DNA of 64,000 nt from a virus (IMGVR_UViG_3300010430_000013:1-64000); one strand, 5' to 3'. Shown: positions 3,212 to 47,011, counted from the first letter of the stretch. Numbers and translations are program-made. The notes: generated from the sequence alone by a model not told the origin.

Positions 3212-3409
3212 ATGAATATTCATCTACTAAAAGATGACGAGGGTGGGGTCTTGAATTTTCCAAGTTTTCCCACGCTTCACAAAAAGACTTGTTTTGTTAG
3301 AGGGGACTATCTGTACGTCTTTATTGATAAGGAGTTCACTAAATACAAAAAACATTACTTTGACTCTGCCACAATTGAAGTGGATGAAGTCGAAACTGTA
3401 AACTCGTAA
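3212..3409 (+). CDS. Hypothetical protein
   Basis: AGGA Shine-Dalgarno, 65 aa, in operon order. Confidence 0.55.
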   Translation: MNIHLLKDDEGGVLNFPSFPTLHKKTCFVRGDYLYVFIDKEFTKYKKHYFDSATIEVDEVETVNS

Positions 3410-3445
3410 ACATTTAAACTTTTTTATTAAACTTGGAGAAAAATT

Positions 3446-3772
3446 ATGACTTTGCCTAACATGCAACCCGGACAAGAAGTTACCCCTGACATGCGTTACT
3501 GCATCATTCGATGCCGAGATGCTGGCGTTCACGCTGGATATGTTGCGCATCACTCGGGTCGAGAAGTGACTCTGCTGAAAAGCCGTCGTCTTTGGAAGTG
3601 GCACGGTAAAACGCTGAGTGGCCTTGCCCAGGAAGGCACGACCAATGCGGACGAATGCAAGTACGCCAATGAGATTCCTGAGATCATGGTACTTGATGCT
3701 TGCGAAATCATTCCATGCTCGGAAGCTGGCAAGGCTTCCATCGGCATGATTCCCGACTGGGAAAACGAGTAA
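3446..3772 (+). CDS. Conserved small phage protein (DUF6948-like, from recall)
   Basis: YCIIRCRDAGVHAG, SRRLWKW, LSGLAQEG, EIIPCSE pattern; GGAG SD. Confidence 0.65.
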   Translation: MTLPNMQPGQEVTPDMRYCIIRCRDAGVHAGYVAHHSGREVTLLKSRRLWKWHGKTLSGLAQEGTTNADECKYANEIPEIMVLDACEIIPCSEAGKASIGMIPDWENE

Positions 3773-3782
3773 TAAAGGGGGT

Positions 3783-3819
3783 GGGCGGCGCTGCCTTCGG
3801 GTGGCGCTGCCTGTTTTTT
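3783..3819 (+). terminator. Intrinsic terminator
   Basis: 13-bp GC-rich stem with G-U pairs, TTCG loop, followed by T6. Confidence 0.8.
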
Positions 3820-5865
3820 ATGCAAGAAATAGAAAACATACATGGCTCCTGTAGAATATCAGGCTATTCAACATTTGTTGTCGGTGATACACTCTATGGA
3901 AATACCCGACTTGAAAAAAAAGGCGATGGCAAAGGAAGAGGCTGTGGCGACGGATTCGGAAGGTCTAGCGGTTACGGACGGGGTGACGGTTGGGCTGAAG
4001 GCAGATGTCTGGCAGAAGGGATGTCCTGGTGATGACTGAAATAGAGGGGGCCTCTGGTTCTTGTAGGGTGTCAGGTTGCTCAACATATGATGTTGAAGTT
4101 GCTGCTTATGGAAACATCCTAGATCTAAATTACGGCTCAGGACTAGGCTGTGGCGATGGACAAGGAGATTGCCAAGGTTTCGGACGGGGGGATGGTTTCG
4201 GCAATGTTTGAAACAGACACATCGTGTAACATTAGTGATCACTCTGTGAGTAATTCTTATAATAATATATGCACTAAAAAAGGATTTGGTTCTGGTGCAG
4301 GTAGCGGCGATGGCAGAACAAGAGACCCTCGTTCCGCATCCGAGGGAGATGGCTACGGTAATGGCAGAGGAACCCAGTATGGACAATGGCCATAGATATG
4401 CCTTATTCAAATGCAGCAATTGAGACACGATACGGTTCGTGTGACTCTTCTGGATCATCCAAAGAAAATCCTTGCTATGCAAACGGCAACGTAATTTGCA
4501 ACGTAGGTTATGGATACGGCTCTGGTGACGGAGACACGGGCATGTCTGGTTACGGCGAAGGAGACGGTTATGCTATGGGACAAGGACTTAAAGAAGGGTT
4601 AAATGCTTAAATCACGGAACAAGCGAATAAATGCTAACGGCTCGTGTCACGCAGATGGCAGCTCTAAAATACCAGACCATCGGATTTATTTTGATCTGGA
4701 GGCAGAAGGACAAGGCTACGGTTACGGCAATGGGGACGGGTCTTATGGGTCCAAAACCCCCGGACGAAGAGCCTCGAACGGAAATGGGCGCGGCCACGGC
4801 ATGTGCTTCAGGTCTGGCGCATCAGTAGGTATAGGTGCATTAAAAGCTGATTGTTTCTCAGACGGAAGGTCTGTCAGAGAATGAGTTACCGTAATGAAAT
4901 ACTAGGAAGGGGCGCTGGATTCGGCTCTGGAGAATGCACTCAATATGGAAATTTTTCCAGATGGGCATATTTACCCTCTAGTAATTTTTGCTATGGATCA
5001 GGAGCCACTGGCGGGGGGTCAGACCACGGGACTGGCTTAGGTGGCGGCTTATTGTTTAGTGACTGCGATAAAACTGGCAAATCTCACTTAGCCGTAGAAA
5101 TTTAAATGAATGAACAGTTTGAAGATGGCTTAGGTCACGGAGATGGTCGCGCCGATGGCTACACAGACGAACAAGGCTTCGGAGAAGGCGACGGATATGC
5201 TTGGGGAAGAGGAACCAGTGGTGGTTACGAAGAACAATTTGATCTCGACCCAGAAGGATATGGAAACGGATACTGCTTCAAAACTGGTGAAGGGGCAGGT
5301 TAACATTGCTTACGAATGTCCCAGCGGGGCAACAACTTCAGCAGGGTTTGGATACGGTCACGGTTGCAAAATGAATGGTTATGGAAACGGATACGGCTCT
5401 GGCGAGGGATATTCTAATGGAGTCGGCAATGGAGTCTAAATCTAGGTTTGGCTATGGTGAAATCCTAACCGGATACATGGACTACGGAGGCGGCGAAAGT
5501 CATGACTGCTGCAATGTTTATGGTACAAATTGCCGTAGAAATTTAACAAACCAACAATTCGGAGACGGCTGCGGCAGCGGATCATCTGATTACGACGGAT
5601 TTTCTTTTGGTTTTGGCGAAGGCGATGGAGAGGGACTTGAAGATGGGCGCGGGTGCTGTTCTTAAAGTAAGTGCTACCGCTTACAAAAAAATCACCCTGC
5701 TTCAAAACAACGAACGGGGCATAGTAAGCTCCCCTAAAGAAAGCATCTACTTCGGCCAGCCAGCTTTTAAAGAAAATGGAAAAATTTTAACATTTAATCC
5801 AGAGCAGGGCCAATTCGTTAAAGTCGACCGAACTTGGGTTAACACTAGGGTTATGGTTAAACTAG

Positions 5866-6024
5866 ATGAAAGAAGAACATACAGATTGCCAGCATGACTG
5901 GGAAGCTATATATAGATTCAACAGCACATTTCGCAGTGGAATAGGCTGGGGCTTCGGAGAAGCTAACGACAATTCTGGAGGGACCACAAGTGGTAGATGC
6001 AAAAGCGATGGTAGCGGAGACTAG
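5866..6024 (+). CDS. Gly-rich mini-protein, 52 aa (below the ORF-track cutoff)
   Basis: MKEEHTDCQHDWEAIYRFNSTFRSGIGWGFGEANDNSGGTTSGRCKSDGSGD*. Confidence 0.6.
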   Translation: MKEEHTDCQHDWEAIYRFNSTFRSGIGWGFGEANDNSGGTTSGRCKSDGSGD

Positions 6025-7120
6025 TCTTCCTTTTCTAAAATCTCCTAGAATAGAGCTAATTAGCGCCAAACTCTTAAGAGAGGAGGGCACTTTAGAAATC
6101 TATCAAGTTACCTATAGAAAAGGCACAAAACCCCGACCTTATTATAAAAAATTCTACAAAGAAGGCATCATGGTGTATTCCAATGGAGTTTATGGCCTTG
6201 GTAAAACAGTTAAAAGTGCCAGGCGTAGCTTCATGAGGAAGATTGGATTTATCTAATGGAATTTGATCTGCGTAATATATTTAATTATGGCATAAGCTTC
6301 AAAGACCCGGATGATTATTGTCTTATTGAGAGTACCAGAAGACATCGTCGAGTCGTGACCCCTAAAATTTCAGCTCGTGAATTTAGGAATTATTTATTCC
6401 ATATTGGGGGCTGGCCTGATGTAGAGCGGGTCGTGTATTTTTACAAGAAGGATGGTATTTTATACATTTCGGACCAATGGCACAAAAATATTTACTAGAA
6501 GTTACTACGGATTGGGATTTTGCCTTGGTGTATAAGGATAGGTATTATTATGGAGATATAACACTTCTTTTAGACAGCCCAAGCGAATTAAATAAAATGA
6601 CAATCGTATGTGGCAGTAAAACTTACGAGTTCGACTTTTCCAAAGAACAAATTCTTTTTAATCCTGAGGCCGAATTTAAATATCTCGGCGGAAACAGAAA
6701 TGTAAAATGGACTCCGGTTACCCTAAAAAAATTAAATGAACAAAGTCAAATTTAAAGAATTTTCCGAAACTGGTCTCGGCTATGGAATAGGTTCCTTTGA
6801 TGGGGAAGAAGACGGTGAATGCCCTCAAGGTCTTTGGAAAGCCTACATTAAATTATTTTCTGACGGACACGGTTACGGCGGCGGAAAAGATAACACTAAT
6901 TGCCTAAGGTCGGGGCGTATAATATCAACGGACAATTCAAAATAAATGACAATGGCTGGGGCTGCGGATGCTTGGACGGTTTTACCGAAGATGAATTACT
7001 TAACGAGTGGTGTATTCTTGTTGCCGGGACGGGTTTAGACACCGGAGGCGGAGCGTTTAACTCAGATTGCGACAGTCAAGGTTTATCTAACGCTTGGACT
7101 CCTTCTGAAGGATTATCAAA

Positions 7121-7453
7121 TTGAGTATTTTAGTTAGCATATATTTGTTGTTTGCTGGTTTTGCCTTGCCATGGTATATATATCAATGTTTTTGTTTGAG
7201 AAATGACGTATCTCTACTTAAAAAAGCTTTATTAGCTAAACTTAACTCAACTAGTGGTCTTGCTAAGACTATAATTAAATTGAAGGACGAGATTACTCAA
7301 CTTAAACACATTGAAGATACCAAGATTCGGCAGATTTCTGAGGAATGGTCTAAATATAGAAAATTTCTTATGGAGAAATACCCAGCCGAGGATGGTAAGG
7401 AATGGGAGTTTGAATGCGAATACCACCAGAAGATAGATGGATTACTAAAATAA
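7121..7453 (+). CDS. Hypothetical membrane-anchored protein
   Basis: N-terminal hydrophobic helix followed by a coiled-coil-like segment. Confidence 0.55.
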   Translation: MSILVSIYLLFAGFALPWYIYQCFCLRNDVSLLKKALLAKLNSTSGLAKTIIKLKDEITQLKHIEDTKIRQISEEWSKYRKFLMEKYPAEDGKEWEFECEYHQKIDGLLK

Positions 7454-9435
7454 ATTGTTCAGAAGTAGCCATATTAACTGAAAAGATGGGAGTTGGATAT
7501 GGTCCCACCTATATAGCCAACACTATGTTTAATATGAATTGGACTCCTGGAAAGGGATCTCAGGGAGATTGCTATTGTCAGATGTGGTCTGAGGATGGCC
7601 AGTCTGGTTTAGGTTGTGGTGAGGCGAATGGTTCAAGATAACTGTGGAGATGGCTCAGGTCAAACTGTTTCAACAGGACTAGGCGTAGGCGCGGGAGCAG
7701 GTTCTGGCAAAAGCAATTGTTGTGGAGAATCTGAAATTGATTTGTCTGATTCGTCTAATCGCTGGAATATCGGCTGGGGAACCGGAACACGCTACGGAAA
7801 CTGCGATTTTAGTGGATTAAGCAGTCATTGGATAAGAAAAATTGAACATTTCAGACCATACGGTTAATCATTATGGATATGGCACAGGTTACGGTCATCT
7901 AGACAACACAGACCCGGATGACGATGATATCATATTCTATTTAACAGCTGTCACCGAAAAAAGAGGTGGTTCGACTGGCAGAGGATGTATATACTCAGAC
8001 GGGGAAAAATCTGGCTACGGCTCTGGAACCGGTCATTTAAATAAGGACTCATGCAAGGCGTCAGGAGCTGAATGTGGTTAAAGACTGTGACATACAAGGC
8101 TTTTCTTATAAAGAGAGAGCAGAGAGGGTTGATTGTGACGGCGACTGCAATGGGATTGGCGGTGGCTGGGGAGACGGAGAGGCATGTGGCCATACAATGA
8201 GAAACGGAACATCAAAATGCGAGAGAATTGGGACTGCGATTCAATTGGGGTCGGGCGAGGGTATGGACAGGTCTCTATAAACTTTGATAACCCAGTGGTT
8301 GTCCTGATGTATGAGCTTGCTGTTAAATCAGGTCAAAACATGACGCATGGTTGTTCTGAAAATAATTTTCAATTTGAAAAACACGGCATTGGTATAGGTT
8401 GGGGACATGCGTATACCGACAGGTAATAATTTTGGCATAGGAATGGGTCATATAGATGGTTTTGATGAGACCGATGCTTTTTTGGTCTTTATGTCTATAC
8501 TATATCAGTCGCGTGGGTATGGCTACGGAAAAGGCTGTAACCACACGCAGGACGAAATAAATTCTGGCGAAGGACAGGGAAGAGGATCATGGTAAATTCT
8601 GGAGCAGGCTCAGTTTACACTGATTGTCTTAGAGATGGTTCAACAGATGAACAAATTCTATGTTTAATTGGTTCTCCAGGATATTATGATGGGTCTGGGC
8701 TCGGTTGGGGGTCAGCTACAGGCTGGGCGCCTCAATACTATGGGGCAGGCTTTGGTAGTGGGGACTGCAATCAGAAAGGTGACAACAATTACCGTTTCTA
8801 GAATCAACAAACAATATAAAGACTCCAAAGGAGATGCTTGCGGAAAAGGCAGATCCGATGGAAAATCTACAGGTTATTGCATTGTTAGCTTTTATCCTCC
8901 AGGGGAGGGAAGCGGTGCAGGATACGAAACAGGACATGGTTTTGGAAGAGGAAGCGGAAACGGTGATTGTAGAAGCCTTGGCCAGAGCATTTAAGATATG
9001 TATAATGGTAACTACGACGAAACTCACAGTGACTTCTGTGTTTCAGGGTGCGGCTACTGCACCACAGACGGAGAAGGTTGGGGCAACGGACTACATTTGG
9101 ATTTTTGCTTTGGGTATGGGGCATCCGGCAGTGGAGTTGGTGTTACTTCTTGCAGCGCGTCCGGTTACTCAAAAATGAGCAGAACAAATGGATCAATTAC
9201 CGAAACTCCACGATGACTATGAAATCTACGGCTGCGGATATTGTTCAGCAGATGGCACAGCATGGGGAGACGGCGATGCATACACCACCAACACACCAAC
9301 CGGACTAGGCTTTGGAACAGGAGCGGCAGACTCAGAGGCTAACGATAACGTCAGTTCTGGTTCGGAAATAGGCATAGGTTGGGGCACCGGAGAAGCTTGG
9401 GGTAGTACTGATCATTGCGGGATTGGCTTATCTGG

Positions 9436-10107
9436 TTATTCCAAAGATTTTATGTAAGCGTCTAAGTGCTTCTTAATGATATATGCAGGAATACACACAG
9501 CCGTTGTGCCGCCATCTGTCTGTCTAGAAATCATTCCCATGACGTATCCACCCATCTCTAAAGATTGTGCGGGTGAGCCACTACAGCCGCCCTCACAAAG
9601 AGGCGAACCTTTAAGCACTTTAAAATCATAAACATCCCCAATACTAGTCTGTCTGTTGGCATGTCCAATAACATTTAGAACATTAGGCTTTCCAGCGGGG
9701 AAGCCTGGAGCCACACAGATAACGCCTTCGCATTTCTTTGCAGGACTGAGATTTAGAGGATTTTTTACCTTGCCGTGAGCTGGGTCAAACTTTAGAATTG
9801 CAACATCGTCCATTTGACCGAATTCAGCGCCTTCGCATTCATAGACAACTGTAGCTTTGCCAAGCTCTTTAAGAACTATCGTACCTGCTACAGGCCCAGG
9901 AATAACACTGTGAAGCGTTACTACTTCACCAATAGACACAGAGTGATCTGTCGCTATGATTGTACTGGCATCAATAAAAAAACCAGTCGAAAGTCCAGTC
10001 TTTTTGTCTGGGCCAATCTTAGATTCTATCCGAACAATTTGGCCGTTTACCTGACTAATCAAGGAGAACAGCAGTGAAATAACCGCAAGTGCTTTAAAAA
10101 TTCGCAT
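9436..10107 (-). CDS. Secreted trypsin-like serine protease
   Basis: Signal peptide; triad motifs ATDHSV (His), DDVAIL (Asp), GGCSGSP (Ser); GGAGG SD. Confidence 0.8.
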   Translation of the reverse strand: MRIFKALAVISLLFSLISQVNGQIVRIESKIGPDKKTGLSTGFFIDASTIIATDHSVSIGEVVTLHSVIPGPVAGTIVLKELGKATVVYECEGAEFGQMDDVAILKFDPAHGKVKNPLNLSPAKKCEGVICVAPGFPAGKPNVLNVIGHANRQTSIGDVYDFKVLKGSPLCEGGCSGSPAQSLEMGGYVMGMISRQTDGGTTAVCIPAYIIKKHLDAYIKSLE

Positions 10108-10286: not shown

Positions 10287-10401
10287 CATTGCTGCTTTTC
10301 ATCGTGAAATTCCGTTGATACGACGGGCTAAATTTATTTAACTAGAGGCTTGCGCTACCAGGTTATCACCTGGTTTCGCGTCACCATTAAAACGAGCAAT
10401 G
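10287..10401 (+). ncRNA. Retron-like msr-msd RNA, unit 2
   Basis: Terminal inverted repeats CATTGCT (10287-93) / AGCAATG (10395-401, includes the RT ATG); G10294; stems TTTCA/TGAAA and CCGTTG/CGACGG; hairpin ACCAGGT/ACCTGGT (10357-10374). Confidence 0.75.
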
Positions 10402-11103
10402 CATCTTACACAAAAATCCATAAAAATAGGCAACAAAATCAGGAAAATTGTCCTGTGTCCACCAGACTTTAAGGAGTCATATTATCGAAAACACGTAGAA
10501 CTTAGCAACCTATTCGAAGAAAACCCGTTCTGTGAGTATGTACATTGCAGAATTGGAAGATCCGTCATCAGTAATGCCAAGCCCCACATAGGGTTTACCT
10601 TTACCCTTAAGATGGATTTAAAAAACTTCTTCTACAATATTACTGTAGACTCACATGGACAATACATCCCCAAAGAATATCATAGATTTGTGTTTTATCG
10701 GGGTAGAGTTCCACAGGGCTTACCGACGAGTCCTTCTGTTGCCAATCTAGCTTTTGCTGTTTGCGACAAGCAGATAGCAGAATTTTGCAAAAAGAAAAAA
10801 GTTATTTATACTAGATACTGTGACGACCTGAGCTTTTCATTTAACGACTATACTTTGGCTGACCAGCTAAAGAAAAAAGTTTCAGATATTGTTTCTGGCG
10901 AGGCTCACAAGATCAACACCCGAAAAACCAAGTTGCTTTACGCAAAGGCAGGCCGTAGAATAATCTGCGGAGTTGGCGTTGGAGAAACTAAGCTGCACGC
11001 CACCAGAAAGTCTAAGCGTAACTTACGAACCTACAAGAAGAATGGGCAAGAGCTTGCAGCCCAAGGAATGCAGGCTTGGATTAACTACTGCGAAAGCGAA
11101 TAA
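10399..11103 (+). CDS. Retron-type reverse transcriptase (minimal, 234 aa)
   Basis: NAKPH (retron NAxxH), MDLKNFF, PQGLPTSP.VAN, YTRYCDDLSFS (YxDD), INTRKTK, ICG at the VTG position. Confidence 0.9.
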   Translation: MHLTQKSIKIGNKIRKIVLCPPDFKESYYRKHVELSNLFEENPFCEYVHCRIGRSVISNAKPHIGFTFTLKMDLKNFFYNITVDSHGQYIPKEYHRFVFYRGRVPQGLPTSPSVANLAFAVCDKQIAEFCKKKKVIYTRYCDDLSFSFNDYTLADQLKKKVSDIVSGEAHKINTRKTKLLYAKAGRRIICGVGVGETKLHATRKSKRNLRTYKKNGQELAAQGMQAWINYCESE

Positions 11104-13039: not shown

Positions 13040-13208
13040 AGATATTGAATACTTTTTCATGAACGGTACGCTTTGGATTCTTCCTCCTGATACGGATACC
13101 CCGAAGCCTGTTTCAACTGATAATCCACTTTATGCAATGGTGCTAGAGTTGGAAAACAAAAACGGAAATCTTAACGAGTATTTAAAGGAATCAGATGTCA
13201 AAGATTAA
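13029..13208 (+). CDS. 59-aa protein in the rIIB position, possibly an rIIB N-terminal remnant
   Basis: MENEDIEYFFMNGTLWILPPDTDTPKPVSTDNPLYAMVLELENK...; overlaps the rIIA stop. Confidence 0.45.
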   Translation: MENEDIEYFFMNGTLWILPPDTDTPKPVSTDNPLYAMVLELENKNGNLNEYLKESDVKD

Positions 13209-14289
13209 AATGAATCTAAACCTGGACATTGTTTTGGACGGGGACAAAATTACAGTCAGCGGGGCTGGCGAACGATGCCAGTGTGTGTGCAGAGAGCCTA
13301 CACCTACGCCTGAGCCGGAACCGGAGCCCACGCCTGAGCCAGAACCAACACCGGAACCGGAACCTACGCCTGAGCCTGAGCCAGAGCCAACGCCTGTCCC
13401 AGACGGAATGCCTAAAGAGTACGGATATAGTGAACTTTTCGCAACAAGTGGACCTGCTGGATCACACCGAGAAAGAGTTGATTATCCGGTATTTGTCTAT
13501 CAGATGAGCAGGTTTAACGCTTTTTATATCTGTAAGACCGGTGGGAAAAAGCAACTATACACCGCCATTGTTAAGGATGGCAAAATTGACTTCTCAACTG
13601 AGAAACACCTGCCTGTTGGAACTCAGAAAGTTGTTCACGTTCAAGCTGCCCAAGAAGAAAACTCTAGCCAAAAATGGCTGAACTTTGTTACGGAAAGCAA
13701 TGGTTTTCACTTGTATTCCTGGCTGGTAAACCGAGGAGAAGTTCAAGGAACTCCCGCAGAAACTCCTCACAGAACTTCGGACGTTATCGCGACAACCAGT
13801 GGACCAGGTATCGAGCTTTGGAAGAAAATCGATAATTTTGTCAAGCACCCATCGACCGGTAAAACTATTGATTATATCAGACGGTGGTTCAAAGGCGACA
13901 GCGACGAACTAACCTTTAATGGATTGGGCTCCAAAGAACAAGTCTACAGTATGGCCGTACATAAAGCCGACAACAAAGGCTATGTAGCTATGCTTGGCTT
14001 ATTCAAAATTGAGAACGATGGTGCTCATCAATACGGTGGAATTCACCCTGTTTGGGCCACGTCAAAAGATGGTATCGCTTGGGACTTGCCTTTTGGCACA
14101 AAGTCAGCTCTGGATGCTCCAGATAAAGACCGAATGGTTCTGCCTACTCAATTCATGCCATTCGGAAAAGAGTTGTATCTAGTCTACAGCGATAACGCAT
14201 TTAGCCACAACACTTACCAACCTGGAGATGTTACGAGTGGCGCTTATGTTAGATACCGTATGACAGATGTAGAAGGACTTCTTAATTGA
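13195..14289 (+). CDS. Protein with Pro-Glu-Pro-Thr linker and probable beta-propeller (glycoside hydrolase-like) domain
   Basis: (PEPEPT)n linker; Asp-box-like WATSKDGIAW; beta-rich C-terminal domain. Confidence 0.55.
   Translation: MSKIKMNLNLDIVLDGDKITVSGAGERCQCVCREPTPTPEPEPEPTPEPEPTPEPEPTPEPEPEPTPVPDGMPKEYGYSELFATSGPAGSHRERVDYPVFVYQMSRFNAFYICKTGGKKQLYTAIVKDGKIDFSTEKHLPVGTQKVVHVQAAQEENSSQKWLNFVTESNGFHLYSWLVNRGEVQGTPAETPHRTSDVIATTSGPGIELWKKIDNFVKHPSTGKTIDYIRRWFKGDSDELTFNGLGSKEQVYSMAVHKADNKGYVAMLGLFKIENDGAHQYGGIHPVWATSKDGIAWDLPFGTKSALDAPDKDRMVLPTQFMPFGKELYLVYSDNAFSHNTYQPGDVTSGAYVRYRMTDVEGLLN
13294..13400 (+). repeat. Coding tandem repeat (PEPEPT)n
   Basis: Repeated CCTGAG/CCGGAA/CCAACG codon units. 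Confidence 0.8.
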
Positions 14290-23736: not shown

Positions 23737-23928
23737 TTGCCCCCCACAAAAGAGAATTTCTTAATGATTTTTTACGGAATCGGATGTCAAACCGCCACCA
23801 ACGCTTATGGGGCGGGTGAACAGTATGACATGTACGATTCGAGCATGGGCGCTGGAGAAGGTTCCGGGGTAGGTTATAGCAACGGCGGAGGCCAAGGAAT
23901 AGGCCATGTTGGGTGGTCAATACTTTAA
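23737..23928 (+). CDS. Dispersed Gly-rich mini-protein
   Basis: GAGEGSGVGYSNGGGQGIG, same style as the 3.8-9.5 kb array. Confidence 0.5.
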   Translation: MPPTKENFLMIFYGIGCQTATNAYGAGEQYDMYDSSMGAGEGSGVGYSNGGGQGIGHVGWSIL

Positions 23929-24096: not shown

Positions 24097-26310
24097 ATGA
24101 AAAAAGCCCTAATCACAGGCGTAACAGGACAAGACGGTTCCTACTTGGCAGAGCTTCTCCTTGAGAAGGGATACGAAGTTTACGGAATGATTCGTCGAGC
24201 TAGCACGAGCAATACGTCCCGCATTGACCATATTAATGATAAAAATTTTTCTATTTTATATGGCGACTTGGCGGATCAGGCCAGCTTGACGGGTTTGGTT
24301 GGTGCTGTCAAACCTGATGAAATCTATAACTTGGCGGCTCAGTCGCATGTGGGAGTTTCCTTTAAGGTTCCAGAATACACAGCAGATGTGACTGGCGTGG
24401 GGCCTTTGCGGTTGCTTGAAGCAGTTCGATTGAACGGCTTGTGTGGGCACACTCGCTTTTATCAGGCTTCTACTTCCGAACTTTTCGGAAAGGTTCAAGA
24501 AGTTCCGCAAAGTGAAACTACTCCGTTCTACCCGAGGAGCCCGTATGGGGTAGCTAAGTTGCACGCCCACTGGAGCGTAATCAACTACAGAGAAGCACAC
24601 AATATGTATGCGTGTAGTGGAATTTTATTTAATCATGAGACTTTATCTTATGGAACTCCAATTATTATCAAAAAAGATGAAGAATTAGATATTCTACCCA
24701 TAGGGGATGTTGCCAGATTTCATACTGGGGTGTTATTCAATATGGAAAAAGACTACCAGGAGGGAAAGCCTATTTCAGATATAAAAATATGGGACCAGTC
24801 TGGATGGGTCGACATTTCTTGGGTGTCAGGATATCCGCATAAAGGTGATAAAAAACCCAGAATAGTGAATGCCAGAAACTCTGTTTACATGGCCACAGGA
24901 AGTCATCCATGTATCATGGAAGATAACTCCGAAAAAAATACAGAGAATTTAAAAGTGGGGGATAAGGTAAAAAATATATCTTACCCGCCTGTTACGAAAG
25001 CTAAAGATGTTTCTTTAGAAGAAGCCGAGTGGCTTGGAATGCTGGTGGGAGACGGAAACCTTAAAGGCAATGCTCCAATATTTACAAATAAAGACCCAAA
25101 AATTAAAAAAAAGTTTGCCGATTTATGGGTTGCATTTACTGGCGGCGAATACAAATATCGAGATAGTTTTTCTGCATTTAACAATGAGCCTGTAGGACAA
25201 GTTTCATGTTATGGTAAATCAGATTTAGAGTATGACATCTATACGAGTGATATAAGTCCATTTGGACATAAAAATAAAAAAGTTCCAATGAAAATATTGA
25301 ATGGATCATTAGATGTAATGGAAGCTTTTTTAGTTGGATACAATTCTTGCGATGGACTAAAATCTAATAAATGCACTTATCGATTTAAGAATTTTAAAAC
25401 AAATTCACCAACTCTAGCCTCGGGTCTTTTGTTTTTAGTATCCAAAGTAACTGGGCAAAAATACAATATCACAGTAGAAGATTCGCTTAAGTGGGGAAAG
25501 CGTCAGCAATATTATTCTATTAATCTTCTCTCGGATCAAGAAACCTCTTTAGAGAAGTATAATGAAGTTAAGGGTCTGTTAGATAAAAATATTTTCATAA
25601 GAAAAATTCACAGAGATACTGGGATAAGCAGAAAATTTATACAAAAAGTTAAATCCGGCTATATTCCAACTAATGAACACGTACTCAAAAAATGTTCAAA
25701 TGAAATTAAAAAAATAATAGACATACCAGATTACTCTGGATGGTTTTTTGATTTAGAAACATCCAGTGGCACATTTCATGCTGGAATTGGGCAGGGAGTA
25801 GTCCATAATTCCCCTCGTCGCGGTGAGAACTTTGTGACTAGGAAAATTACAAAAGCCCTATGTAATGTAGCCAAAGGTGATCTAGCTTATCTCCACATTG
25901 GCAACATGGACGCCAAAAGAGACTGGGGACATGCTCGTGACTATGTAAGAGGAATGTATCTGATGCTCCAGCAGGATTCCCCAGAAGACTACGTTCTAGC
26001 CACAGGAGAACAGCACAGCGTCAGAGAATTCATCGAACTAGCCGCTTTAGAGTTAGGAATTGAGATTGGCTGGACAGGCAAAGGACTTAGTGAAGAGGGG
26101 TATGTTAAAAGACTGTTCGACACAAAATATGGAGATCCACCACTTGTAGAAGACGAAGTCATTGTGGTTGTTAATGAAGAGTTCTATCGACCGACCGAAG
26201 TCGATACCTTGTTGGGCGACCCCAGCAAAGCCAAGAAGGAACTCTCTTGGTATCCTCAGGTTTCATTTAAATCCCTCGTCTCTGAAATGGTGGAAGCCGA
26301 CTATGACTAA
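24097..26310 (+). CDS. gmd: GDP-mannose 4,6-dehydratase containing an intein
   Basis: [69 protein letters not shown]. Confidence 0.95.
24640..25809 (+). mobile_element. Intein (390 aa) with LAGLIDADG-like endonuclease in Gmd
   Basis: Interrupts FNHE|SPRR; starts TLSYGTPI; block B TGSH; WLGMLVGDG and [10 protein letters not shown]; ends FFDLET..VVHN followed by Ser. Confidence 0.9.
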
Positions 26311-26488
26311 CGATAGTCAAGGATATGGAGCAGGAACATGTTTTAGATCTGGCCATGCGTTTGTTAAGATTTATGATAAGTCATACGGGGAAGCTGTGGG
26401 TGGACATGAGCCTACTTTTTTTAAAAGTATTGGATTTGGAACTAAAAACATCCTCATGATAAAAAAGCTTCTACTAAATAAAAAGTGA
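26303..26488 (+). CDS. Dispersed, degenerate Gly-rich mini-protein
   Basis: [11 protein letters not shown] resembles GHGMCFRSG and GYCFKTG in array members. Confidence 0.4.
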
Positions 26489-26784: not shown

Positions 26785-27486
26785 ATGTTTAACCCAGAAA
26801 CCGGAAAACGAATCCACCTCACTCACGGAGCAGGCAACGGCGTGGATAAAGCCTGCTTAATTACCGCTTCCAACATGCTGATTGGTCGCGGACAAGACGG
26901 CGACAACAATAGTTGCGTCTGCCCTGTCCTGCGGAAATTCATTATCACTACCAACGACTCGATGCCCGAAGATTTGCTCAGCGAACTCTACGGTCCACTC
27001 GCATGGGAAATCCTTGGCACCGCAACCGGTGACCCTGCAACCGAACAGCAGCGTGCGTATCGCTTTGTGGACTGGGCGGTGCGGGAGATTACACCAATAG
27101 CATTAAGGGCATCAGGGATGGGTGACCACGCATCAAAGCTGAAGGCGCTGTCGCCAGTGGTAGACCAGCAGACCGCCCGTGCCGTCGCCCGTGCCGCCAG
27201 TGCCGCCCGTGTCGCCCGTGCCGCCGCCCGTGCCGCCGATGCCGCCTATGCCGCCGCCGCCGTCGATGCCGCCGTCGATGCCGCCGTCGATGCCTCCGCT
27301 TATGCCGCCGCCCGTGCCGCCGCCCGTGCCGCCGCCAGTGCCGCCCGTGCCGCCCGTGCCGCCGATGCCGAATTGATCTGGCGAAAGTGCCCTGACATTA
27401 TCCGCGAGGTAGCTGCGATTGGGGACAGGCGACCTGTTGAGACTGTAATTGACCACTGCGATTTAGCAGCCGCTCTAGCCGACTGA
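26785..27486 (+). CDS. Cassette 2: phage protein with Ala-rich repeat
   Basis: ACLITA..SCVCPVLRKF...ND motif; (AAR/AAVD)n tract; stop TGA inside the repeat. Confidence 0.7.
   Translation: MFNPETGKRIHLTHGAGNGVDKACLITASNMLIGRGQDGDNNSCVCPVLRKFIITTNDSMPEDLLSELYGPLAWEILGTATGDPATEQQRAYRFVDWAVREITPIALRASGMGDHASKLKALSPVVDQQTARAVARAASAARVARAAARAADAAYAAAAVDAAVDAAVDASAYAAARAAARAAASAARAARAADAELIWRKCPDIIREVAAIGDRRPVETVIDHCDLAAALAD
27172..27370 (+). repeat. GCC-rich coding tandem repeat (GCCGCCCGT and GCCGCCGTCGAT units)
   Basis: Directly visible; encodes an Ala-rich helix. Confidence 0.85.
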
Positions 27487-36518: not shown

Positions 36519-39515
36519 ATGGAAAACAATCTTCCCACCCCTTACCAAGAGTTCATTCATCTTTCACGTTACGCTCGATGGCTTCCAGAAGAAAAAAGAC
36601 GAGAGACTTGGGAAGAAACGGTTGATAGATTAGTTAACTTCTTTGAAGAGCACCTTAAGGAAAACTTTGACTTTGAGTTAGGCAAGGCAAAAAACCGCCT
36701 CCGCAAAGGAATCTTGAATCTTCAGGTTGTTCCAAGCATGAGGGCGCTTTGGGCTGCTGGTCCCGCTGCATCACGCGATAATGTGGCATGTTACAACTGT
36801 TCAGCTTTGCCTATCGACAAGCCCGCATCTTTTGATGAATTATTTTATATTTTAATGAATGGCTGTGGCGTCGGATTCTCAGTTGAACGACAGTTTATCA
36901 ACAAGCTTCCTGAGGTGTCTGATAGCTTCCATGAGTCCGATACAACCATCGTGGTGAGTGATAGCACCATCGGCTGGTGCAAGGCGTTAAAAGAGCTTAT
37001 AGGCATGCTCTACGTGGGGCAGGTTCCAAGATGGGATCTATCGAAGATTCGCCCTGCCGGAACTCCACTTAAAACCAAAGGCGGTCGAGCTTCTGGTGGC
37101 GAAATTCTCGGTCAACTGTTTGACTTTGTTGTAGTTACCTTTAAGGGTGCATCGGGCCGAAAGCTAAACTCTCTTGAGTGTCACGATATCTGCTGCAAAA
37201 TTGCTGAAATCGTAACCGTCGGAGGTTGTCGCCGTTCAGCTTTGCTGAGTTTGTCCAATTTGTCAGATTTACGCATGAGAGAAGCAAAAGTTGGGCGTTG
37301 GTGGGAAGAAAGCGCTCAACGTGCAATGGCAAACAACAGTGTGGCTTACACAGAAAAGCCAGATATGGGCATCTTTATGGAAGAATGGAAGTCCCTCTAT
37401 GACAGTAAATCTGGCGAGAGAGGTATCTTTAATCGGGAGTCTTGCAAAAAAATTATCGAAAAGATTGGTCGCAGGGATACTGATTTTGAGTTTTTAACTA
37501 ATCCGTGTGTCACATCTGATACATGGATTGATACTTCCGAAGGTCCGATTCAAGCATTCAATCTGATCAACAAGCCATTTCTGGCAACAGTAAATGGAAA
37601 AAATTATGAATGTAAAACAGGTTTCTTTAAAACGGGACATAAAGATGTTTACGAAATCGAAACCTCTCGCGGATACTCAATTAAATGCACCTCTGACCAC
37701 AAAATCTTAACAATTAAAGAAGGTCAAGAGCTTTGGGTTGAGGCGCAACATCTAGACGAGAGTTCAAATATCTGTATTAATCAGCTTGTTCATCAGGATG
37801 ATTACGATTTGGATTTGAATGAATTTCATCAAGGTTGGCTAATGGGGGAAGTAGCTGGAGACGGCGGTCACAATCCTGAAAAATATCCTTCGTATGTCAG
37901 ATTCTGGGGACATAATCGACATCAAATGTCGTCTATGGCTCACGATTTCGTTAAAGATTTGCCTTATGATTCGCACAGGCCAACAGCGCTTGCTGATGAT
38001 CCCACTGACAACGGAACTTATAGTCAATCGGCCAGCAGAGCGCTTGACGAGCTACTGGAGGGCATGCTTGAGCCAGAAACCAAGAATATCCTGCCAGCCC
38101 TAGAGGGGGCGTCAGACTCTACTGTGAGAGGCTTCTTGAGGGGCATTTTTGATGCTGATGGAACCGTGCTTTTTAATAAAGAGAAGGGGCGCTCAGTAAG
38201 GCTTGGTCAGAACAATTTAGACCGACTTAAGTCAGTTCAGAGAATGCTGCATCGTTTTGGTATTGAGTCTTCGGTTTATCAAAATCGAAAACCTGAAGGT
38301 TATTACGAAATGCCTGACGGAAAAGGAGGTAATAAAGAATACTTCTGTAAGGCTATGCATGAACTGGCTATCTCTCGTGAAAACATTTGCAAGTTTGCAG
38401 AATTAATTAATTTTTATGATGCTGACAAAAAAACAAAACTAACTGAGTGCATTGATTCGTTAAGTCGAACTCCGTATAAAGACAAAATGACCACGAATTT
38501 CGTGTCTCGTCGTCATATCGGTCAGCAAGACGTTTATGATTGCACAGTGGATGAAGTGCATCGGTTTGGAGCGAATGGAATTATTATTCATAATTGTAGC
38601 GAAATATTACTCAGACCTCGTGGATTCTGTAACCTCTCAGAAGTAATCCTTAGGGAGGATGATACAGAAGAAACAATCCTTGAAAAGATTGAACTAGCAA
38701 CAATTCTTGGAACCATCCAAAGCACCTTTACTAATTTTCGCTATCTTAGCAAAAACTGGAAGAAGAACGCAGACGAAGAGCGACTGCTTGGTGTTTCGAT
38801 GACTGGAATTATGGACTGTCCTCTTACGAATGATTCCGTAGAAGGTCTTGAAGGAAGGTTAGAGAGATTCAAAGAAAGGGCCATTGAAGTAAATAAAAAA
38901 TGGGCAAAGTCTATTGGTATTAATCAGTCTGCTGCTATTACCTGCGTTAAACCGTCAGGCAATACTTCACAGCTTTGCGACACTGCAAGTGGAATTCATA
39001 CTCGTCACTCTCCTTACTACATCAGAACGGTTAGGTCTGACAAAAAAGACCCGCTAACCAAACTAATGATTGATAAGGGGTTTCCATATGAGGACGAAAT
39101 TAACAATCCTCAAAATATTGCAGTGTTTAGTTTTCCAATTAAAGCTCCTGAGCAATCGTTTTTTAGAAATGATAAGACCGCTCTTGAGCAGCTAGAGCTT
39201 TGGAAGAAGTATCAGTTGCATTACTGTGAGCATAAGCCATCTATTACGGTTTCGGTAAAAGAAGACGAATGGCTTGAGGTTGGTGCCTGGGTTTATAAAA
39301 ACTTTGATTTGATGAGCGGCGTTTCTTTCTTGCCGTTCAGTGATCATGTCTATAAGCAAGCGCCTTATCAGGATTGCACTAAAGAACAATACGAAGAGCT
39401 TTTGGCAAAGATGCCGAAAACTATTGACTGGTCTGAACTATCTGCTTACGAGTCCTCGGATATGACTACCGGAGCACGAGAATTAGCATGTACTGCTGGA
39501 GGCTGCGAAATTTGA
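36519..39515 (+). CDS. nrdJ: Class II (AdoCbl-dependent) ribonucleotide reductase containing an intein
   Basis: FIHLSRYARW, PSMRALW.AG, YNCS, GCGVGFSV, GGCRRSA, TNP/CSEI, CVKPSGN, EHKPSIT, C-terminal ACTAGGCEI. Confidence 0.95.
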   Translation: MENNLPTPYQEFIHLSRYARWLPEEKRRETWEETVDRLVNFFEEHLKENFDFELGKAKNRLRKGILNLQVVPSMRALWAAGPAASRDNVACYNCSALPIDKPASFDELFYILMNGCGVGFSVERQFINKLPEVSDSFHESDTTIVVSDSTIGWCKALKELIGMLYVGQVPRWDLSKIRPAGTPLKTKGGRASGGEILGQLFDFVVVTFKGASGRKLNSLECHDICCKIAEIVTVGGCRRSALLSLSNLSDLRMREAKVGRWWEESAQRAMANNSVAYTEKPDMGIFMEEWKSLYDSKSGERGIFNRESCKKIIEKIGRRDTDFEFLTNPCVTSDTWIDTSEGPIQAFNLINKPFLATVNGKNYECKTGFFKTGHKDVYEIETSRGYSIKCTSDHKILTIKEGQELWVEAQHLDESSNICINQLVHQDDYDLDLNEFHQGWLMGEVAGDGGHNPEKYPSYVRFWGHNRHQMSSMAHDFVKDLPYDSHRPTALADDPTDNGTYSQSASRALDELLEGMLEPETKNILPALEGASDSTVRGFLRGIFDADGTVLFNKEKGRSVRLGQNNLDRLKSVQRMLHRFGIESSVYQNRKPEGYYEMPDGKGGNKEYFCKAMHELAISRENICKFAELINFYDADKKTKLTECIDSLSRTPYKDKMTTNFVSRRHIGQQDVYDCTVDEVHRFGANGIIIHNCSEILLRPRGFCNLSEVILREDDTEETILEKIELATILGTIQSTFTNFRYLSKNWKKNADEERLLGVSMTGIMDCPLTNDSVEGLEGRLERFKERAIEVNKKWAKSIGINQSAAITCVKPSGNTSQLCDTASGIHTRHSPYYIRTVRSDKKDPLTKLMIDKGFPYEDEINNPQNIAVFSFPIKAPEQSFFRNDKTALEQLELWKKYQLHYCEHKPSITVSVKEDEWLEVGAWVYKNFDLMSGVSFLPFSDHVYKQAPYQDCTKEQYEELLAKMPKTIDWSELSAYESSDMTTGARELACTAGGCEI
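37506..38594 (+). mobile_element. Intein (363 aa) with LAGLIDADG endonuclease in NrdJ
   Basis: TNP|CVTSDT..., CTSDH block B, WLMGEVAGDG and FLRGIFDADG, VYDCTV..IIHN|CSEI. Confidence 0.95.
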
Positions 39516-45708: not shown

Positions 45709-47011
45709 TGCATCAAGACATTGTTGAATCGCAACGCAATATTTACGAACCTGGAGAGAATTGCTTTACTCTTCAGGGCAGCCATCACTTTGAAGACGAG
45801 GATGGCAACTTCAGGCTTATTGAACAATACGATAAGCGTGGCAATAGAATCGACTTCAGAGAGCATAGACAAGCTTACGCTATTGAAAAAGTTATGCCGT
45901 CTATGATTAAGTATTTTGTGATGTCAGATACGACTGGGCAATTATTTGACCCCAGGAATGTAGACCATTTACAAACTGCTATGACAGTAAGAAATGGAAA
46001 TAAGATTTGGCGCTGGGTAACCATCTCAAAGAATGGCTTCGAATTTTATAAAGATTATCTAAAAAGAAACAACAAGGTTTTCTACGCGAAAGCCAAAACC
46101 GCACTTTCAAATCCAGGAGGCTAAAATGCCAAGACTTAGTAAACTACAACAAAAGAAAATTCGAGAATTGTTCCTCTCAACGGATATGTCTTTTGATGAA
46201 ATCCGAGATGAGGTTGGATTGAGTAAAAGCTCTAAGCAGGTTGAAAAACTTGTAGAAGAGGAAAACTTGGAGGAACTCAAAGACAAAATTGTCGAAAATG
46301 TAGAAGTAGAAGCTGCCACAGAAGAACTAAACGACTACGAAGACGTTGTTGGACGACTTCGGAAAGCTGGACTTAGTGAAAATGATGCAAGAAATGCTCT
46401 TCGTCGAGCCCTTAAGTCTATGGAAGAAGCAGGAAACGAGAATGCCACCTCTGACGAAGTGTTCATCGCTGCAACTTCATTCATTGGTTCAGGTGCCCTT
46501 ATTCGTAAGACCACTGATTCTGGGCGAGAAGGTGTAGCGATTATGACGCCAGAAGCATCTCGTGCGGCTAGCCCAGCTCCATCTAATCCTAATGCAACTT
46601 CTCGACACCTGAAGAACGCGCATATCAGACCAAAAGATGTTTAATTCGAAGTATACTAAAAAGAGCGTTGACTGGAGGCATAGGATAATTGAGCTTCTTT
46701 GCGAAAACAAAGCTAAGATGGACAAGAAGCTTCCTTTGCCTCCTTCTTTTTGGAATAACAAGCCCTGGTCGCAGTACTGGGCATATCAAGCAAGTTTGAT
46801 TAAACCAATTGTTGAACATGTTGACTATATTAGCATTTACAAAGCAATCAAAGAGACTGGCGCGACATCCTTAAAGAATCAAAAATTCAAAAAAAGATGT
46901 TGGGCAATATACAAAGCTAGCCAAGCCAAACCTCAAGTTCAAGTAGATGTCTCTTCGGAAAAGTCTCTAGGGTCGTTTAAGAAAACGAAAACAAATTTAG
47001 ACCTGCTGTAG
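45708..47011 (+). other. Three hypothetical proteins (45708-46124, 46126-46644, 46637-47011)
   Basis: Translationally coupled ORFs upstream of recA. Confidence 0.6.

What the first reader, a model, noticed from the sequence alone, without database searches (positions are those of the whole stretch)
3446..9457. About 22 divergent Gly/Cys-rich mini-proteins in a coupled array behind a DUF6948-like gene
Seen: nearly 6 kb of 50-95 aa ORFs sharing G-x-G-x-G-(D/N)-G tracts with Tyr/Phe/Trp and Cys, separated by variable segments, with little obvious DNA-level identity. Two further members lie at 23737-23928 and 26303-26488. A strong terminator separates the DUF6948-like gene from the array. From recall, such genes are usually followed by one or a few Gly-repeat ORFs. 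Inference: a diversified family on a polyglycine-II-like scaffold with variable loops, for example anti-defence binders, partners of the DUF6948-like protein, or modified-peptide precursors.
Basis: partly seen in the sequence, partly recalled or inferred. Interest (0 to 1): 0.7.

Follow-up and report, generated by a model that had tools for sequence, protein, structure and literature searches.

The report
Amplified glycine-rich mini-gene array in phage
An uncultured marine-sediment phage carries about 22 different small glycine- and cysteine-rich protein genes in a row behind a conserved small phage gene (DUF6948); they look like a greatly multiplied and diversified version of a partner gene that normally follows it as one copy, and their job is untested.

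Summary
The observation largely holds. Behind a DUF6948 gene (3446-3772) and a strong terminator lie 22 plus-strand ORFs of 52-93 aa (3820-9457) with alternating-glycine tracts, a recurrent C-x3-G motif and variable segments. Five unrelated small ORFs split them into three blocks.

They behave as real, separate genes. The called frame has the best coding statistics in 24 of 24. Of 16 strain differences in an independent assembly, 11 are synonymous, with no indels. Three members have orthologues on another contig, with Gly kept at 41 of 46 positions.

The two distant "members" (23737, 26303) are not supported (leave-out profile E 1.9 and 0.84).

In 79 of 82 DUF6948 genes from 84 other phage loci, an acidic (Gly-X)n ORF follows directly, nearly always as one copy. 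This array is therefore an amplified, diversified form of that partner gene. It has less glycine, carries Cys, has mixed charge, and is uncoupled from DUF6948 by the terminator.

Function is inferred only. My best guess is a set of interchangeable partners of the DUF6948 protein.

This scan has already flagged the same module and smaller or similar arrays in at least 16 other genomes. A search for 'DUF6948' found no paper.

The parts
3446..3772 (+). DUF6948 gene (108 aa)
   Evidence: PF22253 E 1.5e-26. phrog_18306 E 4.1e-11. 394 homologues.
3783..3819 (+). Intrinsic terminator: 13-bp hairpin 3783-3812 (UUCG loop) and T6 run 3814-3819, ending one base before the first array ATG
   Evidence: -28.1 kcal/mol, z -4.9
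3820..4032 (+). m3820, 70 aa mini-protein (block A)
   Evidence: LOO E 4e-4 (72). 52% identical to m4032 (41).
4032..4211 (+). m4032, 59 aa
   Evidence: LOO E 1.8e-5 (72). Called as a 59-aa protein in the public collection, P0126.
4204..4395 (+). m4204, 63 aa (public call starts at 4156, 79 aa, P0125)
   Evidence: LOO E 1.6e-5 (72)
4386..4610 (+). m4386, 74 aa
   Evidence: LOO E 7e-6 (72). Orthologue P0131, 35 of 67 identical.
4603..4884 (+). m4603, 93 aa, three C-x3-G motifs, net charge +5
   Evidence: LOO E 2.2e-3 (72). Orthologue P0122, 53 of 71 identical.
4881..5105 (+). m4881, 74 aa
   Evidence: LOO E 0.018 (72)
5106..5303 (+). m5106, 65 aa, net charge -12
   Evidence: LOO E 5.4e-5 (72). 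4 of 5 strain substitutions synonymous.
5260..5439 (+). m5260, 59 aa (start uncertain; frame open from 5134)
   Evidence: LOO E 2.1e-3 (72)
5429..5665 (+). m5429, 78 aa, 6 Cys (start uncertain; frame open from 5375)
   Evidence: LOO E 0.051 (72)
5866..6024 (+). m5866, 52 aa, last member of block A
   Evidence: LOO E 0.066 (72)
5625..6755 (+). Four unrelated small ORFs (5625-5897, 5990-6256, 6256-6498, 6477-6755) that interrupt the array; G+C is lower here
   Evidence: No PHROG hit. G+C 0.384 at 6001-7000 against 0.47 in the array (2).
6736..6945 (+). m6736, 69 aa (block B)
   Evidence: LOO E 1.2e-5 (72). Atlas model pLDDT 0.41 (55).
6900..7124 (+). m6900, 74 aa (TTG start)
   Evidence: LOO E 4.9e-4 (72)
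7121..7453 (+). Unrelated 110-aa ORF with a hydrophobic N-terminus, between blocks B and C
   Evidence: No Pfam, PHROG or PADLOC hit
7414..7641 (+). m7414, 75 aa, weak member
   Evidence: LOO E 0.57 (72). Only 2 GxGxG and no C-x3-G motif.
7628..7867 (+). m7628, 79 aa
   Evidence: LOO E 3.1e-3 (72)
7842..8081 (+). m7842, 79 aa (TTG start)
   Evidence: LOO E 0.013 (72). 4 of 5 strain substitutions synonymous. The variant protein P0127 is on record.
8074..8280 (+). m8074, 68 aa (GTG start)
   Evidence: LOO E 3.9e-3 (72)
8217..8426 (+). m8217, 69 aa (start uncertain; an ATG also at 8184)
   Evidence: LOO E 0.035 (72)
8407..8595 (+). m8407, 62 aa
   Evidence: LOO E 1.6e-3 (72). Orthologue P0129 has the same length and ends, 44 of 62 identical.
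8589..8801 (+). m8589, 70 aa
   Evidence: LOO E 0.014 (72)
8779..8994 (+). m8779, 71 aa (start uncertain; frame open from 8668)
   Evidence: LOO E 1.8e-3 (72)
8998..9216 (+). m8998, 72 aa
   Evidence: LOO E 0.12 (72), but BLASTP E 5e-7 to m9188 (41)
9188..9457 (+). m9188, 89 aa, last member, net charge -12
   Evidence: LOO E 1.6e-5 (72)
23737..23928 (+). Gly-rich 63-aa ORF proposed as a further member; not supported
   Evidence: E 1.9 against the 22-member profile. 5 GxGxG (68). Coding statistics are good.
26303..26488 (+). 61-aa ORF proposed as a further member; not supported
   Evidence: E 0.84 (72). One GxGxG and one CFRSGHA motif.

Best explanation
The array is a lineage-specific amplification and diversification of the '(Gly-X)n partner' gene that follows DUF6948 genes in phages. 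There are at least 20 statistically supported genes, and 22 by my count.

Shown: the genes are separate, under purifying selection in the called frames (which implies translation), and restricted to this phage and one relative.

Inferred: the products are alternative partners of the single DUF6948 protein, acting as 'tails in trans'. The short head and the alternating-Gly tracts (with C-x3-G and aromatic anchors) would be the constant part that docks on or is handled by DUF6948. The variable segments would give each complex a different binding surface or a different strength of competition with its ligand.

The terminator between DUF6948 and the array would set a lower, separately tuned dose of the partners than the usual overlapping, coupled start does.
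For: Identity of the genes.
- Coding log-likelihood is best in the called frame in 24 of 24 ORFs. It lies in the range of 24 long reference genes even without Gly codons, and Gly codon usage equals that of the reference genes.
- An independent Logan contig covers 3300-9600 in one piece with 0 indels and 16 substitutions. 11 are synonymous in the called frame, against 2 and 4 in the other frames. P = 0.004 against a transition-only expectation of 0.33.
- Orthologues P0122, P0129 and P0131 are each on one ENA contig of 12,892 bp. They keep Gly at 41 of 46 positions against 73 of 128 for other residues, and P0129 has the same start and end as m8407.

Link to DUF6948.
- In 84 other loci, 79 of 82 DUF6948 genes with room downstream are followed by an alternating-Gly ORF. 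By my start picks, its start overlaps the DUF6948 stop in 71 of 79.
- Examples in deposited phages are Koroua, NK-7 and MW202898.
- Multi-copy forms exist in L002, L018, L020 and L035. L035 has six diversified, Cys-bearing members.
- No third gene recurs beside the pair; the commonest neighbour family is in 7 of 83 loci.
Against: - No interaction, expression or structure data exist. No RNA run holds the stretch (this is no evidence either way).
- A strong terminator and a 47-nt gap uncouple the array from DUF6948, unlike 71 of 79 other loci.
- The members differ from canonical partners: Gly median 20% against 43.5%, net charge median -3.5 (range -12 to +5) against -9, and Cys present.
- One DUF6948 gene faces 22 partners.
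- The array profile hardly detects canonical partners: best E 5.4e-5 and 1.6e-3 in a small local set.
- The descent of the array from the partner gene therefore rests on position, motif style and the intermediate forms in L019 and L035, not on significant sequence similarity.
Confidence: 0.4

Rival explanations
1. The mini-proteins are stand-alone small binders or decoys that act on host proteins, for example defence systems, early in infection. They work independently of DUF6948; their position beside it only records their origin.
For: The terminator uncouples them from DUF6948. Their variable loops, charge and Cys content are strongly diversified. The region is an accessory one, with a retron RT, rIIA and homing endonucleases. 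In other phages the module lies among early replication and recombination genes.
Against: No PADLOC match for the five proteins tested (DUF6948 and four mini-proteins) and no Pfam match above a cut-off for the 24. No known anti-defence family was matched. Nothing identifies a target.
Confidence: 0.25
2. They are low-complexity 'material' proteins. Like FUS-type [G/S]Y[G/S] regions or high-glycine-tyrosine keratin-associated proteins, they self-associate into a condensate or matrix, and sequence details matter little.
For: The composition is Gly, aromatic and Cys rich. Weak compositional Pfam hits go to KRTAP (2 of 24, best E 0.0018) and TrAA12 (7 of 24), all below the cut-offs. The Atlas model of m6736 is unconfident (pLDDT 0.41). 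Canonical partners are 43.5% Gly and 12.9% Tyr.
Against: Orthologues conserve many non-Gly positions and exact protein ends. The motif order is far from random. Gly is only 14-29%.
Confidence: 0.1
3. They are precursors of ribosomally made, post-translationally modified peptides. Many different cores would be served by one enzyme, possibly DUF6948 or a host enzyme.
For: There are many short, diverse, Cys/Ser/Gly-rich ORFs in a row, with a recurrent C-x-x-S-G-x-S-like motif.
Against: No radical-SAM, YcaO or LanC-like match in the 89.7-kb record. The record is only 59% complete by CheckV. The ~25 neighbouring ORFs scanned in Pfam show no modifying enzyme. There is no shared leader and no signal or hydrophobic segment (maximum KD15 1.07). 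DUF6948 is 85 aa with no enzyme match.
Confidence: 0.05
4. It is decaying repeat DNA, or one large glycine-rich gene broken by frameshifts or assembly errors, and is not translated as 22 proteins.
For: The frames change from ORF to ORF. The first ORF has no Shine-Dalgarno-like sequence, and 12 of 22 starts have none.
Against: An independent assembly has no indel over 6.3 kb. Substitutions are mostly synonymous in the called frames. Orthologues on another contig are called as separate small proteins with matching ends. Coding statistics are good in 24 of 24. The genome's long genes are intact.
Confidence: 0.04
5. They are exchangeable receptor-binding tips, like the glycine-rich gp38 adhesins of T-even phages, or targets of retroelement-driven hypervariation.
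For: Gly-rich motifs separated by variable segments resemble the gp38 layout (recalled; PMC12227593 passages list S16 gp38 as a PGII bundle). A reverse transcriptase lies 1 kb downstream.
Against: No sequence match to any PDB chain of that kind. The proteins are 52-93 aa and have no attachment domain. They do not lie in a tail module. The RT is retron-type. No template/variable repeat pair exists; the longest repeat is 32 nt.
Confidence: 0.03

Closest known systems
DUF6948 (Pfam PF22253) with its downstream (Gly-X)n gene in phages. Examples: Pectobacterium phage Koroua CDS0033/0032; Ralstonia phage NK-7 XCO36016/XCO36015 ('fibroin heavy chain-like protein'); Iodobacter phage phiPLPE.
   Same: A DUF6948 gene lies directly upstream on the same strand. 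The downstream ORFs are small and carry alternating-Gly tracts with Tyr/Phe/Asp/Ser. The module lies in an accessory or early region.
   Different: There are 22 copies instead of one. Gly is 14-29% instead of about 43%. Cys and hydrophobic segments are present and the charge is mixed. There is no DNA repeat. A terminator replaces the overlapping start. In print I found only the phiPLPE element, listed as a DNA repeat, (KMGCCG)35 at 46,046-46,255. Its authors guessed an attachment site (PMC3391216, Table 3 and text passages). It abuts the DUF6948 match at 46,295-46,534.
Hfq with a glycine-rich, acid-tipped C-terminal domain (Acinetobacter 'GGFGGQ' repeats; E. coli and Caulobacter acidic tips that autoregulate the Sm core)
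   Same: A small conserved core is associated with a Gly-rich, often acidic low-complexity piece. This is the working analogy for 'tails in trans' (PMC11617691 abstract; PMC5606850 and PMC6561178, search listing only).
   Different: Here the two parts are separate genes. DUF6948 shows no profile similarity to Hfq (hhalign probability 0.3%). The Sm-like fold comes from earlier notes of this scan and was not testable here. RNA binding is unknown.
Polyglycine-II bundle proteins: Salmonella phage S16 gp38 adhesin and snow-flea antifreeze protein
   Same: Gly-rich motifs are separated by variable segments, the proteins are small, and the antifreeze protein has Cys (recalled; list of PGII proteins from PMC12227593 passages).
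   Different: No sequence match. Gly alternates with period 2 here, whereas the antifreeze protein has Gly every third residue (recalled). The fold is untested.
High-glycine-tyrosine keratin-associated proteins (Pfam KRTAP)
   Same: They are small Gly/Tyr/Cys-rich proteins encoded in large tandem gene families (recalled). 2 of 24 members give weak hits (best E 0.0018).
   Different: The likeness is in composition only. The hits are below Pfam's cut-off, the proteins are eukaryotic and structural, and homology is not implied.

Membership tests
DUF6948 (PF22253), for 3446-3772 | Score above Pfam's gathering cut-off over the whole domain | tested here: met
   92.8 bits against a cut-off of 27, profile positions 1-85 of 85
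DUF6948 + (Gly-X)n two-gene module | Gly-rich ORF directly downstream of DUF6948 on the same strand | tested here: met
   The first member starts 47 nt after the stop. The rule holds in 79 of 82 other cases.
DUF6948 + (Gly-X)n two-gene module | Partner start overlaps the DUF6948 stop (translational coupling) | tested here: not met
   A terminator hairpin lies between them. Elsewhere 71 of 79 overlap by 4-17 nt (my start picks).
DUF6948 + (Gly-X)n two-gene module | Partner is almost wholly alternating Gly-X, about 43% Gly, made of G/Y/S/D, and acidic | tested here: inconclusive
   Alternating tracts are strongly enriched (110 against 12.9). But Gly is 14-29%, net charge is -12 to +5, and Cys is present. 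The array profile gives only weak hits to canonical partners.
Sm/Hfq superfamily, for the DUF6948 protein | Sequence-profile similarity to the Hfq Sm core | tested here: not met
   hhalign of A2 (38 DUF6948) against A5 (20 of the 31 usable Hfq cores fetched): probability 0.3%. A PDB profile search gave 0 hits at E up to 10.
Sm/Hfq superfamily, for the DUF6948 protein | Sm fold: N-terminal helix plus a bent five-stranded sheet that forms rings | not testable with these tools
The Atlas structure search returned only DUF6948 clusters. The Sm-like claim comes from earlier notes.
Polyglycine-II bundle proteins (S16 gp38, snow-flea AFP) | Sequence relation to a solved PGII protein | tested here: not met
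   Profile A1 against PDB sequences gave only an artificial GS linker and chance hits.
Polyglycine-II bundle proteins (S16 gp38, snow-flea AFP) | PGII helices packed in a bundle | not testable with these tools
The Atlas model of m6736 has pLDDT 0.41.
RiPP precursor peptides | A cognate modifying enzyme encoded nearby | tested here: not met
   No PF04055, PF02624 or PF05147 match in the 89.7-kb record. No enzyme among the scanned neighbours. The record is 59% complete, so absence is not proven.
Diversity-generating retroelement targets | Template/variable repeat pair and a DGR-type RT | tested here: not met
   The longest direct repeat is 32 nt. The RT matches retron-type models best.

The most novel reading that the evidence does not exclude
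The phage encodes a repertoire of about 20 small glycine-scaffold proteins that plug, one at a time, into a single conserved adaptor (DUF6948). Each would redirect the adaptor to a different nucleic-acid or protein target. This would be a virus-encoded combinatorial 'one core, many specificity subunits' system built on a fold class not yet described.
Probability: 0.15. Interest if true: 0.8.

Novelty: new variant of a known kind. Interest (0 to 1): 0.55.

Why it matters
The DUF6948 plus (Gly-X)n pair is common. The sequence search found 394 DUF6948 homologues, and 79 of 82 genes with room downstream have the partner. A full-text search for 'DUF6948' found 0 papers.

Simple-repeat partners are hard to study because all three frames are open and they look like DNA repeats; phiPLPE's was published as one.

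This array has non-repetitive, individually distinct members. It therefore gives the clearest evidence here that the partner acts as a protein: synonymous strain variation and conserved orthologue ends. It also offers a natural panel of about 20 variants for binding and structure work.

If the members prove to be interchangeable partners of one core protein, that would be a new way for phages to diversify a function.

Tried and rejected
**Family and structure searches that found nothing**
- Pfam and PHROGs on all 24 mini-proteins gave only sub-threshold compositional hits: TrAA12 7 of 24, KRTAP 2 of 24, phrog_18306 2 of 24.
- PADLOC gave nothing for DUF6948 or four members.
- blastn of the array against INPHARED gave no match.
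- PDB sequence searches with profiles of DUF6948 and of the array gave nothing real.
- The Atlas returned only DUF6948 clusters for DUF6948. It gave no usable hit for m6736 (pLDDT 0.41, all TM below 0.5).

**Searches for relatives and fusions**
- Looking for fused forms of DUF6948 among longer proteins found one 215-aa protein with an unrelated N-terminus and no Gly fusion.
- Looking for the relative's contig in IMG/VR with m4603 and P0122 found none among 395 pattern matches.
- The metagenome scan with DUF6948 returned only the L002 phage again plus a fragment.
- The scan of bacterial genomes found two MAG loci, which I did not analyse further except as handles.

**Expression**
- No RNA holder was listed. 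Only one DNA run, a marine-sediment metagenome, holds the stretch, and it may be the source sample.

**Other tests**
- The neighbour-gene census found no third conserved gene.
- Sm-like test by sequence: hhalign probability 0.3%.
- Literature: 'DUF6948' gave 0 papers. 'polyglycine II' with 'phage' gave 6 papers, none on this. A five-term search gave 57 papers; none of the 15 listed was relevant by title.
- Supplementary tables of PMC3391216 (S1-S5), which may annotate the phiPLPE genes, were not opened.
- Rejected readings: a broken large gene, DGR target, adhesin cassette and RiPP precursors (see rivals).

Full report
**Context.** The window is the first 64 kb of an 89,733-bp IMG/VR virus record with a CheckV completeness of 59%. 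The only sequencing run found to hold the stretch is a marine-sediment metagenome. Proteins identical to array members are also on record on a 98,139-bp contig. Genes around the finding are phage accessory and early types:
- two HNH homing endonucleases;
- a DUF2201 metallopeptidase/vWA protein;
- a retron-type reverse transcriptase;
- rIIA;
- a B12-dependent ribonucleotide reductase.

**The observation.** 3446-3772 encodes a DUF6948 protein (PF22253, E 1.5e-26). It is followed by a GC-rich 13-bp hairpin with a UUCG loop and a T6 run (3783-3819; -28.1 kcal/mol, z -4.9). The first array ATG (3820) follows at once.

From 3820 to 9457 I count 22 plus-strand ORFs of 52-93 aa, median 70.5. They form three blocks: ten genes at 3820-6024, two at 6736-7124, and ten at 7414-9457. 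Five unrelated small ORFs with no family match separate the blocks.

18 of 21 junctions have a gap of 3 nt or less, and 16 of these overlap. Several starts are my choice among alternatives.

The proteins have 14-29% Gly, 1-6 Cys (68 Cys in 1564 residues), net charge -12 to +5, and no hydrophobic segment.

Motif order is not explained by composition. GxGxG occurs 110 times against 12.9 +/- 4.0 in shuffles, and CxxxG 33 times against 13.8 +/- 3.2. Many members begin and/or end with a [G/S/D]-C-x-x-[S/T/D]-G-x-[S/T]-like motif. Several have an acidic and then hydrophobic segment between two Gly tracts.

DNA identity is limited to patches of 19-32 nt, and there is no tandem repeat.

**Family membership.**
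- BLASTP links 27 of 276 pairs at E<0.01. Neighbours are most alike: m3820/m4032 at 52%, and m8998/m9188. This fits tandem duplication followed by fast divergence.
- Leave-one-out profiles recover 14 of 22 members at E<0.01 and 20 of 22 at E<0.1. m8998 (0.12) is tied to m9188 by BLASTP, and m7414 (0.57) is weak.
- The two distant candidates at 23737 and 26303 score E 1.9 and 0.84. I do not accept them as members.
- No further member appears in the rest of the 89.7-kb record.

**Are they real genes?**
- A codon log-likelihood trained on 24 long genes of the window is highest in the called frame for 24 of 24 ORFs. Values are 0.12-0.51 per codon against 0.19-0.42 for the reference genes. This also holds with Gly codons removed, and Gly codon usage matches the reference genes.
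- Shine-Dalgarno-like 4-mers or longer precede 10 of 22 starts, against 20 of 37 reference genes and 18% of random sites. This is soft evidence, because Gly codons inflate such matches.
- An independently assembled contig of one public run covers 3300-9600 in one piece with no indel and 16 substitutions. 11 are synonymous in my frames, against 2 and 4 in the other two frames. P = 0.004 against the transition-only expectation. The run may be the source sample, so this reflects strain variation and not an independent occurrence.
- An exhaustive HMMER search of 1.84 billion representative proteins with a profile of nine sequences found nine proteins at E up to 1e-3. Five are the window's own. P0122 was itself in the profile. 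P0129 and P0131 are new orthologues, and one is a 13-residue chance match.
- P0122, P0129 and P0131 each lie on one ENA contig of 12,892 bp. They are 75%, 71% and 52% identical to m4603, m8407 and m4386.
- In these pairs Gly is conserved at 41 of 46 positions, aromatics at 14 of 20, Cys at 4 of 6, and others at 73 of 128. P0129 has the same first and last residues as m8407.

These results exclude decayed repeats, a broken long gene and an assembly artefact.

**Relation to DUF6948.**
- DUF6948 has 394 homologues in the size range searched.
- I examined 84 other loci: 80 from IMG/VR and 4 deposited phages. They hold 87 DUF6948 genes, of which 82 have at least 150 nt downstream.
- 79 of those 82 are followed within -60 to +400 nt by an ORF with an alternating-Gly tract. 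By my start picks, its start overlaps the DUF6948 stop by 4-17 nt in 71 of 79.
- These partners have a median length of 83 aa, are 43.5% Gly, 12.9% Tyr, 12.8% Ser and 11.8% Asp, and have a median net charge of -9.
- Ser is encoded by both TCN (715) and AGY (163), which points to selection on the protein.
- One of the three exceptions (L043) has a less regular Gly-rich ORF.
- No third gene recurs.
- The partner is usually unannotated or mis-framed. Chlorobiaceae phage CV-1-33 gene_25 is annotated as 'MAMAMA...' over a Gly-X frame. In phiPLPE it was published as a DNA repeat, (KMGCCG)35, with an attachment-site guess (PMC3391216; position compared).
- Most loci have one partner. By a crude count, 65 of the 84 other loci have exactly one, and most higher counts in G+C-rich loci are false.
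- True multi-copy cases are L002 (three, with two DUF6948 genes), L018, L020, and L035. L035 has six diversified, Cys-bearing members that share an 'IQLCSDEVL..A.RITD' head.
- L019, a 253-kb phage, has a single non-repetitive partner.

These intermediates, the position and the motif style are my basis for reading the array as an amplified partner gene. Sequence similarity to canonical partners is weak.

**What it does.** Nothing here shows function. I commit to the partner-repertoire model at about 0.4. The mini-proteins would be alternative ligands of the DUF6948 protein, with constant Gly/Cys/aromatic anchors and variable loops.

The working analogy is Hfq, whose Gly-rich, acid-tipped C-terminal domain tunes the Sm core (PMC11617691 abstract; PMC5606850 and PMC6561178 by listing only).

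Earlier notes of this scan call DUF6948 Sm-like. By sequence profile there is no similarity to Hfq (probability 0.3%) or to any PDB chain.

Against the model stand the terminator, the lower Gly content, the mixed charge, and one core gene facing 22 partners.

The main rival, at 0.25, is that the proteins are independent binders or decoys. Other readings are given under rivals.

**Novelty.** A search for 'DUF6948' found no paper. Within this scan the same module, and arrays of 8 to about 20 or more members, have been noted in at least 16 other genomes. The kind is therefore not new to the scan.

This case stands out in two ways. It has the largest number of tandem members among the 85 loci I examined, window included. 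Its members are non-repetitive, Cys-bearing and of mixed charge.

Noticed in passing
window 9436-10107 (-) and 10399-11103 (+): The trypsin-like protease on the minus strand, right after the array, weakly matches the protease part of PADLOC's retron 'RT-Protease_XI' models (E 4.8e-5, profile positions 348-502 of 506). It lies divergently beside the retron-type RT, so it may be that retron's effector. It has a signal-peptide-like N-terminus.
   Followed up: partly
L005 3270-3536 (Chlorobiaceae phage CV-1-33, MT192033): The deposited gene_25 is annotated as 'MAMAMALAMA...'. It overlaps a frame that reads as a Gly-X partner (GYGDGDGSGDG...) right after the DUF6948 gene, so the annotated frame is probably wrong.
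   Followed up: partly
L035 7470-9725 (IMGVR_UViG_3300047377_000522): This locus has a second diversified array: six Cys-bearing Gly-rich mini-proteins that share an N-terminal 'IQLCSDEVL..A.RITD' head around a DUF6948 gene, plus a 3' fragment of a second DUF6948 copy. It is the nearest analogue of the window's array among the loci examined.
   Followed up: partly
L018 8225-9190 (IMGVR_UViG_3300020045_018361): The junction 'end of DUF6948 + Gly-X ORF' is duplicated in tandem; fragments such as '..IEIIPT..KDYTP' recur before each Gly-X ORF. This suggests how such arrays grow.
   Followed up: no
window 26785-27486 (+): A 233-aa protein with a long Ala-rich repeat (AARAA/AVDAA) sits in the G+C-richest kb of the window (0.568). 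By eye it resembles ORFs that follow the Gly-X genes in L018 (9442-11800). The similarity was not tested.
   Followed up: no
window 13195-14289 (+): The protein has an (EPEPTP)n low-complexity stretch after a Cys-rich start. It gives only a weak Pfam PARP-repeat hit.
   Followed up: no
window 36519-39515 (+): The 998-aa B12-dependent ribonucleotide reductase aligns to phage homologues in two pieces that cover only 62-74% of its length. It probably carries an insertion such as an intein.
   Followed up: no
window 5600-7450: The five non-Gly small ORFs inside the array lie in lower-G+C DNA (0.384 at 6001-7000) and have no family hit. They look like later insertions that split the array.
   Followed up: partly
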